The position numbers and the translations under genes were made by a program. 4,448 nt of DNA. It comes from a virus (taxonomy: Duplodnaviria > Heunggongvirae > Uroviricota > Caudoviricetes). The stretch lies in the IMG/VR virus record IMGVR_UViG_2713896899_000010. The stretch is one strand, 5' to 3'. The notes under the pieces were generated by a model that saw nothing but the letters and a program-made list of their open reading frames with translations, was not told where the DNA came from and did no database searches. Of the stretch, positions 1,497 to 4,401 are shown in pieces (the stretch's first letter is position 1; each line of letters starts with the position of its first letter).

Positions 1497-1640
1497 ATGC
1501 GAAAAACGCAGGAAAATAAACGCGTTAATCACCGAAAAGATGTGCTACGTGACCAGTTTTATCAGGGGGTTAATCCAGCAATAGCTGTGCCACTGAGAGA
1601 AATACTTAACAGGTACAAAACTTCGGAGAAGTCAAAATGA
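1497..1640 (+). CDS. Hypothetical small basic protein, 47 aa (MRKTQENKRVNHRKDVLRDQFYQGVNPAIAVPLREILNRYKTSEKSK)
   Basis: ATG preceded by GAGG (1486-1489). Its stop overlaps the next start as ATGA (1637-1640), suggesting translational coupling. No recognisable family. Confidence 0.4.
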   Translation: MRKTQENKRVNHRKDVLRDQFYQGVNPAIAVPLREILNRYKTSEKSK

Positions 1641-2413
1641 GCATGAATCTTATGGCTAAGGCCATGAATATAAAGGTTGGCAACCCACTGAGAAAACTGG
1701 TTCTGATTAAACTTGCCGATAACGCCAATGATAATGGCGAATGCTGGCCTTCATATCAACATGTCGCTGACCAGTGTGAGGTGAGCAGATCTACAGTAAA
1801 AAGTCACATTAGGGCGCTGGAAGAGATGGGGCTTTTGAAAAGGGAATTCAGAAGAAAAGGAGAGCTTAACCAGTCAAACGTTTTTTATCTGACGCTGGAT
1901 AATGCACAACAAATCCAACCAGAATCAGGTGGGGCAGGAGCTGACCGGGGTGGGGCAGGAGCTGACCTAGGGGGTGGGGCAGGAGCTGACCCCAGAACCT
2001 ATCACTCTTTTGAACCAGTCAAAGAACCTAAAAACATTATGTTCGAACGTGTCCGAACGAAGTGTGAAAAATCACCTGACCTTCACGAAGAAACCGACAA
2101 GGCATTCGAGGAAATATTCTGGTGTGCAGGAATGCGGAAAGCCGGGAAGAAAAACGCAGCTTCGGCATTCAGAACACAGTTCAGGGAATGGCGTAAAACT
2201 ACCAGGGGTACGGCAAGCGAGTTTGCCACGATGCTGGCAGAAGACATCGCATGCAGGAATGGTAAGCAGTTCGGATTCGACAGGTTGTTACCATCGAGCT
2301 ACCTGAACGGTCAACGCTGGAACGACGAGAAGCCAGAAACTATTCAACCACAATCCAAACCATCATCCGCAATCACCGTATCGAAAACTGGCTACGTGTT
2401 TTTCGACAGGTGA
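1637..2413 (+). CDS. Phage replication initiator, 258 aa: N-terminal winged-helix HTH domain, Gly/Ala-rich linker, C-terminal domain of unknown fold
   Basis: RBS GGAG at 1625-1628. The N-terminus LRKLVLIKLADNANDNGECWPSYQHVADQCEVSRSTVKSHIRALEEMGLLKRE is the HTH typical of prophage and plasmid initiators. The gene occupies the lambda O position and contains iterons. Confidence 0.8.
   Translation: MSMNLMAKAMNIKVGNPLRKLVLIKLADNANDNGECWPSYQHVADQCEVSRSTVKSHIRALEEMGLLKREFRRKGELNQSNVFYLTLDNAQQIQPESGGAGADRGGAGADLGGGAGADPRTYHSFEPVKEPKNIMFERVRTKCEKSPDLHEETDKAFEEIFWCAGMRKAGKKNAASAFRTQFREWRKTTRGTASEFATMLAEDIACRNGKQFGFDRLLPSSYLNGQRWNDEKPETIQPQSKPSSAITVSKTGYVFFDR
1929..1991. repeat. Three direct 18-bp iterons GTGGGGCAGGAGCTGACC (1929-1946, 1950-1967, 1974-1991); probable origin of replication
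   Basis: Three perfect copies seen directly, with 21- and 24-bp centre spacing, inside the initiator gene and followed by a moderately AT-rich stretch (1992-2045). This is analogous to ori-lambda iterons inside O. Confidence 0.75.
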
Positions 2414-2520
2414 ACCATGAAATCAAAAATCAAATCGCTACTGGTCGCTGGTTATAACCACGGTTGGTTAAGTATTTCGTTTGTCGATTTCTGGTTTAAA
2501 AATCTCAATCTGAGGGAATC

Positions 2521-4401
2521 ATGACGCCAAGTGAACTTAGCGACCTGCTTTGGGCGCAGGTTGACAGGGTGGCTCCGCACCTGTTGCCAAACGGCAAGAA
2601 AGAGGGGCATGAGTGGGTTGCCGGTAACGTTAACGGTGACAAGGGAAACAGCCTTAAGGTCAACCTTAGCGGCAAGAAAAAATGGGCTGATTTCGCTGAG
2701 GGAGACGGCGGTGACATGCTTGATTTGTGGATGGCATGTCGAGGAATTAACCTGCATCAGGCTATGCAGGAAGCGAAAGCATTTCTCGGTATCAAGGATG
2801 ACGATCACCATTTCGATGCCAAACGTGAGAAGAAATTCTCCAGACCTGATCGCAAGAAAATCGCCCGCTACGTTACCAGAATAGAATCCCATCTTGAGTA
2901 CCTGCAATCGCGTGGCATATCGCCAGAAGTCGTAAAGCGCTACGAGGTTGTCAGCGGCAAGGTGTGGAATGGAGAACGAGAACTTGATGCACTGGTGCTT
3001 CCGTACAAACGCGATGGTGAGTTGTTGCAGGTCAAGCGAATCAGCACTGAGCGCCCGGACGGGAAGAAAGTCATTATGGCAGAAGGTGATTGCGAACCTT
3101 GTCTGTTCGGATGGCAGGCTCTGGACGCTGGCGTAAGGGCGGTTGTACTTTGCGAAGGCGAAATTGATTGTATGAGCTATGCGCAATACGGCATCTCGGC
3201 GTTATCCGTGCCGTTTGGTGGCGGGAAAGGCGCTAAGCAGCAGTGGATTGAGTTTGAGTATCACAACCTCGACAGGTTTGAGGAAATATTCATCTCGATG
3301 GACGTTGATGATGTTGGTCGTGAAGCCGCAAGGGAAATCGCAAGCCGACTCGGTGAACATCGTTGCCGTCTTGTTACTCTGCCGTACAAAGACATCAACG
3401 AATGCCTGATGAACGGTGTTACCGAGGATGAAATCTGGCAGTACATCGGCACGGCATCCTTCTTCGACCCTGAAGAACTCTACAGCGCGCGAGAGTTTTA
3501 CCAGGACACTATCAACGCTTTCTACGGCAAGCAGCAGTATCTGTTTAATCCACCGTGGGAATCTCTGGCAGATAAATTCCAGTTCCGTGAGGCCGAGTTG
3601 ACGCTGGTCAATGGTGTGAACGGTCACGGAAAAACGGAGGTTGTCGGGCATATGGCACTTGAGGCAATGCGTCAGGGTGTGAAGACGTGCATCGCGTCAC
3701 TTGAGCTGAAGCCTGGTATTCTCCTTAAGCGACTTACCCGTCAGGCAACGTGCTGCAAGATGCCGCCAGTGCTGGAAATTGACTCTGCATTTAAATTTTA
3801 TGACGAAAGACTTTGGGTGTTTGGCCTGACCGGAACGGCGAAAGCCGACAGGCTGATCGAAATATTCGACTACGCTCGCCGCCGATACGGCATCCAGTTA
3901 TTCATCATCGACAGCCTGATGAAATGCGGCATAGGTGACGATGACTATAACGGGCAGAAAGCATTTGTTGACTCGATTTGCGACTTCAAAAACAAAACAA
4001 ACTCCCACGTCATTCTCGTTACTCACTCGCGAAAAGGAGACAGCGAAGAAAAACCAACCGGAAAAATGGACGTAAAAGGCTCTGGAGCGATAACAGACCT
4101 GACAGACAACCTTTTCATCATCTGGCGTAACAAGGCTCGCGAGAGAGCGTTACAGAGAGTTCAGAGTGGTGAAAAGATGTCAGAGAAGGACGAACAGCTA
4201 CTGGCATCTCCGGCATCTGTTTTGATGCTTGAAAAACAACGTAACGGCGAAGGTTGGGAAGGTGGTGTCCCGTTGTTCCTTGACGAGCAATCGCACCAGT
4301 TCCTGCAACTTGAATCAGGATCGCCATATAGCTACATCGCCAATATGCCGAAATCGGAATATGACGAGGCGTGGCGACAGGAAAACGTGACGGAGTATTA
4401 A
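2521..4401 (+). CDS. Bifunctional primase-helicase, 626 aa: Toprim primase core plus DnaB/T7 gp4-like (SF4) helicase domain
   Basis: RBS GAGGGA at 2512-2517. Toprim Glu (VLCEGEID, about aa 212) and DxD (MDVDDVG, about aa 261). Walker A GVNGHGKTE (about aa 365), Walker B LFIIDSLMK, helicase motif HVILVTHSRKG, and DnaB-type motif LEKQRNGEG (about aa 572). Confidence 0.85.
   Translation: MTPSELSDLLWAQVDRVAPHLLPNGKKEGHEWVAGNVNGDKGNSLKVNLSGKKKWADFAEGDGGDMLDLWMACRGINLHQAMQEAKAFLGIKDDDHHFDAKREKKFSRPDRKKIARYVTRIESHLEYLQSRGISPEVVKRYEVVSGKVWNGERELDALVLPYKRDGELLQVKRISTERPDGKKVIMAEGDCEPCLFGWQALDAGVRAVVLCEGEIDCMSYAQYGISALSVPFGGGKGAKQQWIEFEYHNLDRFEEIFISMDVDDVGREAAREIASRLGEHRCRLVTLPYKDINECLMNGVTEDEIWQYIGTASFFDPEELYSAREFYQDTINAFYGKQQYLFNPPWESLADKFQFREAELTLVNGVNGHGKTEVVGHMALEAMRQGVKTCIASLELKPGILLKRLTRQATCCKMPPVLEIDSAFKFYDERLWVFGLTGTAKADRLIEIFDYARRRYGIQLFIIDSLMKCGIGDDDYNGQKAFVDSICDFKNKTNSHVILVTHSRKGDSEEKPTGKMDVKGSGAITDLTDNLFIIWRNKARERALQRVQSGEKMSEKDEQLLASPASVLMLEKQRNGEGWEGGVPLFLDEQSHQFLQLESGSPYSYIANMPKSEYDEAWRQENVTEY

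What the first reader, a model, noticed from the sequence alone, without database searches (positions are those of the whole stretch)
1637..4401. Replication module is an HTH initiator plus a Toprim-DnaB primase-helicase rather than lambda O/P
Lambda uses O with P to recruit host DnaB. Here the initiator is followed by a single 626-aa protein combining a primase core and an SF4 helicase, which implies host-helicase-independent initiation. A 107-bp spacer separates the two genes. The C-terminal half of the initiator (aa about 125-258) has no family I can assign and is the likely helicase-recruiting surface.
Basis: partly seen in the sequence, partly recalled or inferred. Interest (0 to 1): 0.4.

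Follow-up and report, generated by a model that had tools for sequence, protein, structure and literature searches.

The report
ES18-type lambdoid phage replication module
This is a known alternative replication gene set of lambda-like phages: an origin-binding protein, a tiny 35-residue protein and a T7-like primase-helicase.

Summary
The initiator lies at 1637..2413 (258 aa, N-terminal HTH_36). The 626-aa protein lies at 2521..4401. It is a T7 gp4/Twinkle-type Toprim primase fused to an SF4 helicase, and every catalytic residue checked is conserved.

The module is already known. It is 94-97% identical to phage ES18 gp59(C-terminal part)-gp60-gp61. It is about 97% identical in DNA to the Stx2 phage that defines replication type "Eru5".

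Three corrections:
- **Spacer.** The 107-bp "spacer" holds a conserved 35-aa gene (2417..2524, = ES18 gp60). It is under purifying selection and its stop overlaps the primase-helicase start.
- **Origin.** The origin lies inside the initiator gene: three exact 19-bp iterons (1928-1991), then an AT-rich stretch, as in lambda.
- **C-terminal half.** Residues about 148-230 are a confidently folded helical domain with no Pfam or PDB match. The domain is generic: elsewhere it precedes DnaB helicases, DnaC-like loaders or lambda-P-like proteins. What tracks the primase-helicase is the last ~17 residues (…SSAITVSKTGYVFFDR) plus the 35-aa protein.

Independence from host DnaB/DnaC/DnaG is a reasonable inference, not shown. 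Interest is low.

The parts
1497..1640 (+). 47-aa ORF between cII and the initiator. Its stop overlaps the initiator start (ATGA). It occupies the position of ES18 gp58.
   Evidence: (phrog_1913, E 4e-21, labelled 'tail protein', probably a mislabel). No blastp match to ES18 gp58 at E<=1e-3.
1637..2413 (+). Replication initiator, 258 aa
   Evidence: 96.5% identical to the Stx2a_F451 (Eru5-type) initiator. Residues 132-258 are 95% identical to ES18 gp59.
1685..1837 (+). Winged-helix DNA-binding domain (HTH_36, aa 17-67); inferred iteron reader
   Evidence: Always co-occurs with the GGTGGGGCAGGAGCTGACC iterons: 20/20 loci with this N-terminus have them, and 59/63 loci without it lack them.
1928..1991 (.). 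Three exact 19-bp iterons GGTGGGGCAGGAGCTGACC at 1928, 1949 and 1973 (spacing 21 and 24 bp). They encode the Gly/Ala-rich linker GGAGADRGGAGADLGGGAGADP.
   Evidence: Relatives differ in 7-aa (21-bp) steps, with 3 to 9 repeats. The linker is predicted disordered.
1992..2060 (.). AT-rich stretch (60-75% AT at 2000-2040), then a 10-bp tandem pair TGTTCGAACG/TGTCCGAACG. Inferred unwinding region. The mosaic joint with ES18/Sf101-type phages lies at about 2029.
   Evidence: (matches of Sf101, mEp043 and SEN22 start at 2029).
2078..2326 (+). Initiator C-domain (aa ~148-230): helical bundle, motif AFExFWxAGMRK…FGFDxLxPxxYLNGxRWxDE. Generic initiator domain with no Pfam or PDB counterpart.
   Evidence: block-mean pLDDT 92-96 over aa 151-230; 372 representative proteins at E<1e-3; no family or structure; varied downstream partners.
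2360..2410 (+). C-terminal tail PSSAITVSKTGYVFFDR. Inferred docking peptide for the primase-helicase and/or the 35-aa protein.
   Evidence: The tail motif is present in 17/19 genome loci with a primase-helicase downstream and in 0/44 loci without one. It is present in 78/78 viral loci. SI5 retains it although its middle domain is replaced.
2417..2524 (+). 35-aa gene (MKSKIKSLLVAGYNHGWLSISFVDFWFKNLNLRES), = ES18 gp60. Its stop overlaps the primase-helicase ATG.
   Evidence: (dN/dS 0.13-0.5).
2521..4401 (+). T7 gp4/Twinkle-type primase-helicase, 626 aa (= ES18 gp61, 94% identical)
2521..2820 (+). N-terminal domain that aligns with the zinc-finger region of DnaG-type primases but has no Cys4 (one Cys in 100 aa)
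   Evidence: (TIGR01391 positions 27-155 align to aa 26-143). T7 and the Chryseobacterium homolog keep Cys4.
3145..3408 (+). Toprim catalytic core (E212, D261, D263, D291)
3583..4302 (+). SF4 helicase domain (Walker A K371, E395, Walker B D464, H502, Arg finger R574)

Best explanation
The region is the ES18-type ('Eru5') replication module of lambdoid phages, here joined to lambda-type cI/cro immunity. It sits downstream of the lambda-type pR promoter, and its genes are linked by ATGA stop/start overlaps: the 47-aa ORF with the initiator, and the 35-aa gene with the primase-helicase.

Inferred mechanism:
1. The initiator's N-terminal winged-helix domain binds the three 19-bp iterons inside its own gene. 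The iteron DNA encodes a flexible Gly/Ala linker.
2. The adjacent AT-rich DNA opens.
3. The initiator's extreme C-terminal tail, probably together with the 35-aa gp60-like protein, brings in the phage's own T7-gp4-like hexameric primase-helicase.
4. That enzyme unwinds and primes for the host polymerase, so host DnaB, DnaC and DnaG are not needed.

Shown here: gene structure, homologies, conserved catalytic residues, iterons, mosaic boundaries and co-occurrence patterns. Inferred: DNA binding, the tail/gp60 contact, primase activity without a zinc finger, and host independence.
For: **Identity of the module**
- ES18 gp59 (C-terminal part), gp60 and gp61 are 95%, 97% and 94% identical to the window's proteins. 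The F451 (Eru5-type) initiator is 96.5% identical. The Eru5 reference phage AP012529 matches at 97% DNA identity.

**Primase-helicase**
- T7 gp4 scores 3e-23 and Twinkle 7.5e-14. All T7 catalytic residues checked are conserved.

**Origin**
- Three exact iterons are followed by an AT-rich region. Iteron number varies from 3 to 9 in relatives. Iterons track the N-terminal domain.

**Modularity**
- Among 80 loci with a 99-100% identical primase-helicase, every locus long enough to show it keeps the C-domain and the 35-aa gene. Only about a quarter keep this N-terminus; Sf101 carries a lambda-O-type N-terminus instead.
- The tail and the 35-aa gene co-occur with the primase-helicase and are absent from DnaB, DnaC-like and P-type loci.
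- The 35-aa gene is under purifying selection.
- The window encodes no loader.
Against: - No experiment on this module type was found in the papers searched.
- The primase lacks the Cys4 zinc-binding motif that T7 gp4 needs for template-directed priming. Metazoan Twinkle also lost the cysteines together with primase activity (own knowledge; the activity loss is also stated in abstracts listed).
- The tail/gp60 link is correlative. The three elements are adjacent, so linkage alone could explain much of their co-occurrence.
- The N-terminal domain model had low confidence.
Confidence: 0.7

Rival explanations
1. The 626-aa protein works only as the replicative helicase. Its zinc-less primase part does not make primers, so host DnaG primes, as it does with the phage P22 gene 12 helicase.
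For: No Cys4 in the first 100 residues in any enterobacterial homolog, whereas T7 and a Chryseobacterium homolog have it. DnaG can work with a phage helicase (Wickner 1984, cited in PMC8022706).
Against: Toprim and RNA-polymerase-subdomain residues (K172, K183, E212, D261, D263, D291) are invariant across homologs down to 20% identity, which argues for a selected catalytic function. The Cys-less N-terminal domain is itself strongly conserved.
Confidence: 0.2
2. One reading: the folded C-terminal domain (aa ~125-258 as a whole) is the specific surface that recruits the primase-helicase.
For: In 80 loci with a near-identical primase-helicase, the C-terminal half is kept at 93-96% identity while the N-terminus is swapped. 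This resembles the lambda O C-terminus binding P (established knowledge).
Against: The same domain family precedes DnaB helicases (6 loci), IstB/DnaC-like ATPases (7) and lambda-P-like proteins (3). SI5 lacks the domain but keeps the tail, the 35-aa gene and a 93% identical primase-helicase.
Confidence: 0.2
3. The 35-aa ORF has no function as a protein. It only couples translation of the primase-helicase to upstream ribosomes.
For: It has ATGA overlap and its own Shine-Dalgarno sequence. It is very short and has no family hit.
Against: Its length is fixed at 35 codons across genera. Conserved residues are MK.xIK.LL.AGYNHG.LS…LR. dN/dS is 0.13-0.5 and the synonymous excess appears only in this frame.
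Confidence: 0.12
4. Initiation still needs host DnaB, loaded by host factors at the initiator-opened origin. The phage enzyme is accessory, for example for lagging-strand priming or restart.
For: Some lambdoid phages encode only an O homolog and no helicase or loader (34 of 314; PMC12315714), so host-dependent routes exist.
Against: A complete SF4 helicase with all motifs is kept at 94-100% identity across many phages and is always adjacent to the initiator.
Confidence: 0.1

Closest known systems
Phage ES18 replication region gp59-gp60-gp61 (also epsilon34 gp50-52, Sf101, mEp043)
   Same: Same C-domain and tail of the initiator (95% identical), same 35-aa gene (97%) and same primase-helicase (94%). 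The origin lies inside the initiator gene.
   Different: ES18 and Sf101 have a lambda-O-type N-terminal domain (Phage_rep_O) and a lambda-like ori. The window has an HTH_36 domain and different iterons. The joint is at about nt 2029.
Stx-phage replication type Eru5 (reference Stx2a_F403, AP012529; PMC8951638)
   Same: HTH_36 protein followed by a 'primase'. 97% DNA identity over 1150-4405, including the same N-terminus and iterons.
   Different: The Stx2 phages carry a LAGLIDADG intein at the Walker A site of the primase-helicase (968 aa) and different immunity genes. The paper does not describe the helicase half, the iterons or the 35-aa gene.
Phage T7 gene 4 primase-helicase / mitochondrial Twinkle
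   Same: Same domain order (primase, then SF4 helicase). All catalytic residues checked are conserved. E 3e-23 and 7.5e-14.
   Different: About 23% identity. No Cys4 zinc ribbon. It has a ~28-residue insertion before the arginine finger and a different C-terminal tail. It works at an initiator-bound origin in a temperate phage that encodes no polymerase in this module.
Lambda O/P and ori-lambda
   Same: Iterons inside the initiator gene encode a flexible linker and are followed by AT-rich DNA. The N-terminal half gives origin specificity and the C-terminal part links to the helicase system. The module lies in the same place in the pR operon.
   Different: No sequence relation to O. No P. The phage brings its own helicase and primase.
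Phage P22 gene 18 / gene 12
   Same: A lambdoid initiator plus a phage-encoded replicative helicase that replaces host DnaB (PMC10307801).
   Different: P22 gp12 is a DnaB-family helicase without a primase and uses host DnaG.

Membership tests
T7 gp4 / Twinkle-type primase-helicase | Toprim RNA-polymerase domain with the acidic metal ligands and two essential lysines | tested here: met
   T7 K122, K128, E157, D207, D209 and D237 correspond to window K172, K183, E212, D261, D263 and D291. All are invariant in 15 sequences. Toprim_2 E 3e-12.
T7 gp4 / Twinkle-type primase-helicase | SF4 (DnaB-like) helicase motifs: Walker A, catalytic Glu, Walker B, motif-3 His, Arg finger | tested here: met
   K371, E395, D464, H502 and R574 align with T7 K318, E343, D424, H465 and R522. 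AAA_25 reaches Pfam's cut-off; DnaB_C (23.8 bits) is below its cut-off of 27.
T7 gp4 / Twinkle-type primase-helicase | N-terminal Cys4 zinc-binding domain | tested here: not met
   One Cys in the first 100 residues. All enterobacterial homologs lack Cys4, while T7 and the Chryseobacterium homolog L135 have it. The region still aligns with the DnaG zinc-finger region (TIGR01391).
T7 gp4 / Twinkle-type primase-helicase | Hexameric ring with primase and 5'-3' helicase activity | not testable with these tools
   Needs biochemistry.
ES18-type / Eru5 lambdoid replication module | Initiator C-domain and tail, 35-aa gene and primase-helicase in that order | tested here: met
   95%, 97% and 94% identity to ES18 gp59 (aa 156-282), gp60 and gp61. 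97% DNA identity to the Eru5 reference.
Lambda O family initiator | Phage_rep_O N-terminal domain / sequence similarity to lambda O | tested here: not met
   Pfam gives HTH_36, not PF04492. BLASTP and hhalign against lambda O find nothing.
Lambda O family initiator | Iterons within the initiator's own gene, followed by AT-rich DNA | tested here: met
   Three exact 19-bp repeats at 1928-1991, then 60-75% AT at 2000-2040.
Lambda P / DnaC-type helicase loader | A loader gene next to the initiator | tested here: not met
   No Phage_lambda_P or IstB_IS21 hit in any window ORF scanned. Such genes are found next to the same C-domain in other genomes.
DnaD-like domain (DnaB_2) | Structural or sequence similarity of the initiator C-domain to DnaD C-terminal domains | tested here: inconclusive

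The most novel reading that the evidence does not exclude
The initiator's ~17-residue C-terminal tail and the 35-aa gp60-like protein together form a minimal adaptor. This adaptor delivers a self-loading gp4-type primase-helicase to a lambda-type origin. That would be a helicase-recruitment route with no AAA+ or P-type loader, and it would use a primase that recognises templates without a zinc finger.
Probability: 0.3. Interest if true: 0.5.

Novelty: already known. Interest (0 to 1): 0.15.

Why it matters
The finding as written adds nothing new. Lambdoid phages with a primase-helicase in place of P or DnaB have been annotated since ES18 and are a named type (Eru5) in Shiga-toxin phages.

Three points could still be useful:
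- Most annotations, including RefSeq E. coli and most phage records, omit the conserved 35-aa gene.
- The initiator C-domain is a widespread, confidently folded family that has no Pfam entry and no solved structure.
- Natural domain swaps point to the short C-terminal tail, not the folded domain, as the partner-specific element. This gives a cheap, testable handle on how a gp4-type helicase is brought to an origin.

Replication type has been linked to Stx-phage behaviour (PMC8044961, PMC8951638), so a mechanistic description of Eru5 has some applied interest.

Tried and rejected
- **Lambda O relation.** BLASTP and hhalign of the initiator and the C-domain profile against lambda O found no relation.
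- **PDB sequence searches.** Searches with the initiator and the C-domain profile gave nothing below E 0.2.
- **RNA or regulatory elements.** Rfam found none in the window. One weak promoter-like site lies in the gap (2403-2430, 9/12), but the count over the whole window is no more than the shuffles give.
- **DnaA boxes.** None in the window.
- **Membrane peptide.** The 35-aa protein's hydropathy is too low for this.
- **Second viral-contig scan with the C-domain profile.** It returned almost only close relatives and added little diversity.
- **First protein search with the whole initiator.** It listed only relatives with >83% identity.
- **Not used.** The second structure job and the third large protein search, because homology to T7 gp4 was already clear from sequence.
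Full report
**Setting.** The window is the immunity and replication stretch of a lambdoid prophage. It holds:
- a cI gene (54..767, minus strand; Peptidase_S24 plus HTH_3);
- a pR-like promoter at 815-843;
- a cro gene (868..1068; Pfam Cro, E 2.5e-34);
- a cII-like gene;
- a 47-aa ORF;
- the two genes of the finding.

By my own reading, cI and cro are close to lambda's.

**The observation.** The ORFs are exactly where stated: 1637..2413 (258 aa) and 2521..4401 (626 aa), 107 bp apart.

The first protein has an HTH_36 winged-helix domain at aa 17-67 (E 5e-14). 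It matches PHROG replication-initiation families, with E down to 4e-76.

The second protein has:
- Toprim_2 at aa 209-296 (E 3e-12), and AAA_25/DnaB_C over aa 355-594 (DnaB_C below Pfam's cut-off);
- a phrog_239 'DNA primase/helicase' match at 7e-171;
- matches to solved T7 gp4 structures at 3e-23 and human Twinkle at 7.5e-14.

I aligned it with T7 gp4 and 13 homologs from other genomes. The following T7 residues are all conserved:
- primase lysines K122 and K128;
- Toprim acidic residues E157, D207, D209 and D237;
- Walker A K318, catalytic E343, Walker B D424, H465 and the arginine finger R522.

The domain reading is therefore right.

**It is a known module.** DNA searches show the same genes in many phages and in over 2,000 of 5,426 complete E. 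coli genomes.

Phage ES18 has carried this annotation since its 2005 record:
- gene 59: 'similar to phage lambda gpO', with a rep_origin 'similar to lambda ori' inside it;
- gene 60: 35 aa, function unknown;
- gene 61: 'putative primase/helicase; similar to phage T7 gene 4'.

The window's proteins are 95% (initiator aa 132-258), 97% and 94% identical to these three. Epsilon34 has the same trio (PMC2629481).

In Shiga-toxin phages the combination 'HTH_36 protein plus primase' is replication type Eru5, with Stx2a_F403 (AP012529) as reference (PMC8951638). That phage matches the window at 97% DNA identity over 1150-4405. The related F451 initiator is 96.5% identical over its full length.

**The 'spacer' is a gene.** Positions 2417..2524 encode MKSKIKSLLVAGYNHGWLSISFVDFWFKNLNLRES. 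An AGGTGA sequence precedes it, and its TGA overlaps the primase-helicase ATG.
- The ORF keeps exactly 35 codons in 11 enterobacterial genome loci compared codon by codon. A profile of it finds the peptide at further primase-helicase loci, at only two of which it is disrupted. These loci span Shimwellia, Pantoea, Erwinia, Citrobacter, Providencia, Xenorhabdus, Arsenophonus and others.
- The conserved core is MK.xIK.LL.AGYNHG.LS…LR.
- Against the window, pooled synonymous change is 0.52 per site and non-synonymous 0.21. The other two frames show no such excess. Pairwise dN/dS is 0.13-0.5.
- It is absent from loci where the initiator domain is followed by another kind of helicase or loader.
- RefSeq E. 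coli and most phage records do not annotate it.

**The origin.** Three exact copies of GGTGGGGCAGGAGCTGACC lie at 1928, 1949 and 1973 inside the initiator gene. A 60-75% AT stretch and a short 10-bp tandem pair follow.
- The repeats encode GGAGAD heptads. Close relatives differ in length in steps of 7 aa, from 3 repeats (as here) to 9.
- AlphaFold predicts this segment to be disordered.
- The repeats occur in all 20 fetched loci that have this N-terminal domain. They are missing from 59 of 63 loci that lack it. This fits the N-terminal domain being the iteron reader.
- The layout is that of ori-lambda within O, although the protein shows no similarity to O.

**The C-terminal half.** There is no Pfam hit at E<=0.1. 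The NCBIfam hits for the whole initiator all fall in the N-terminal HTH region. There is no PDB sequence hit.

A scan of 1.84 billion representative proteins found 372 relatives at E<1e-3. The conserved core is aa ~150-240, with the motif AFExFWxAGMRK…EFAxML..DI..R…QFGFDKLHPTTYLNGERWxDE. This core sits behind very different N-terminal domains.

In 67 genome loci that carry the domain, the next large gene falls into these groups:

| Next large gene | Loci |
|---|---|
| gp4-like primase-helicase | 21 |
| IstB/DnaC-like ATPase | 7 |
| DnaB-family helicase | 6 |
| lambda-P-like protein | 3 |
| other or none | the rest |

The folded domain is therefore a general initiator part, not a primase-helicase-specific surface.

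**What does track the primase-helicase.**
- Among 80 viral loci with a 99-100% identical primase-helicase, every locus long enough to show them keeps the C-terminal part and the 35-aa gene. Only about a quarter keep the window's N-terminus. Sf101 carries a lambda-O-type N-terminus instead. The joint is at about nt 2029.
- Salmonella phage SI5 keeps the window's N-terminus and iterons. It replaces the helical domain with an unrelated segment, yet ends in the same …PSSAITVSKTGYVFFDR. It keeps an identical 35-aa gene and a 93% identical primase-helicase.
- A tail of this kind (G[YL]V[FY] or [EQ]VF[IV] in the last 25 residues) is present in 17 of 19 genome loci with a primase-helicase downstream and in none of 44 without one. 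It is present in all 78 further viral loci.
- DnaC-type loci instead end in …TP[DE]WAKD….

This is correlative, and the elements are adjacent, so linkage contributes to the pattern. The SI5 swap is still hard to reconcile with the folded domain being the specific contact.

**The primase.** The first 100 residues contain one cysteine, so there is no Cys4 zinc ribbon. The region nevertheless aligns with the zinc-finger part of DnaG (TIGR01391 positions 27-155). T7 and a Chryseobacterium homolog have the cysteines; all enterobacterial homologs lack them.

Because the catalytic residues are invariant, I think the primase is active. This is the weakest step of the 'independent of DnaG' claim.

**Mechanism and confidence.** The best-supported model has four steps:
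1. The initiator binds the iterons.
2. The AT-rich DNA opens.
3. The tail, with or without the 35-aa protein, brings in the phage's own primase-helicase.
4. That enzyme unwinds and primes for the host polymerase.

The identity of the parts is near certain. The mechanism is inferred, at about 0.7. I found no experiments on this module type in the papers searched.

**Verdict.** The spacer and 'C-terminal surface' statements need correcting. Interest is low.

Noticed in passing
window 1175-1180 (cII-like gene, 1175..1474): The cII-like gene reads ATG TAA, a stop at codon 2. Two relatives (Stx2a_F451 and E. coli MFDS1019527) read ATG GAA. The longest remaining ORF (1280..1474, 64 aa) covers only positions 32-90 of the CII profile. 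This phage probably lacks functional CII.
   Followed up: partly
window 1450-1420, minus strand: A strong terminator-like hairpin (12 pairs, then a T run) lies antisense to the 3' end of cII, where lambda has the oop RNA terminator. Rfam gave no match.
   Followed up: no
window 1497-1640: A 47-aa ORF whose stop overlaps the initiator start. It sits where ES18 gp58 sits, but blastp found no match to gp58. Its PHROG family (1913) is labelled 'tail protein', which looks like a mislabel given its constant place in the replication operon.
   Followed up: partly
L002 3875-6781 (Stx2a_F451; also phi24B, Min27): The Stx2-phage copies of the primase-helicase are 968 aa. A 342-aa insert with LAGLIDADG_3 and Hint domains sits right after the Walker A lysine, so it is an intein at the P-loop. 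The window's copy has none.
   Followed up: partly
window 1928-1991 and proteins P0001-P0118: The initiator length in close relatives runs from 258 to 301 aa, mostly in 7-aa steps. This reflects 3 to 9 copies of the 21-bp iteron unit. The window has the fewest.
   Followed up: yes
L003 2720-3376 (Salmonella phage SI5): This initiator has the window's N-terminus, two iterons and the same last 17 residues. Its middle domain is different and unrelated (MPEGFSPS…DW…W…, which from memory resembles DnaT-like segments). It sits next to the same 35-aa gene and primase-helicase.
   Followed up: partly
window 4330-4398 (primase-helicase C-terminus): A conserved tail (…YIANMP.SEYD..W…NVTEY) ends the protein, where T7 gp4 has its acidic polymerase-binding tail. 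It could be a contact for a host replisome part. A ~28-residue insertion precedes the arginine finger relative to T7.
   Followed up: no
L092, L093, L096 (Enterobacter, Pantoea, Serratia prophages): A second tail class (…EVF[IV]…A…R…) goes with a more divergent primase-helicase (60-62% identical) and a more divergent 35-aa gene. The three elements appear to diverge together.
   Followed up: partly
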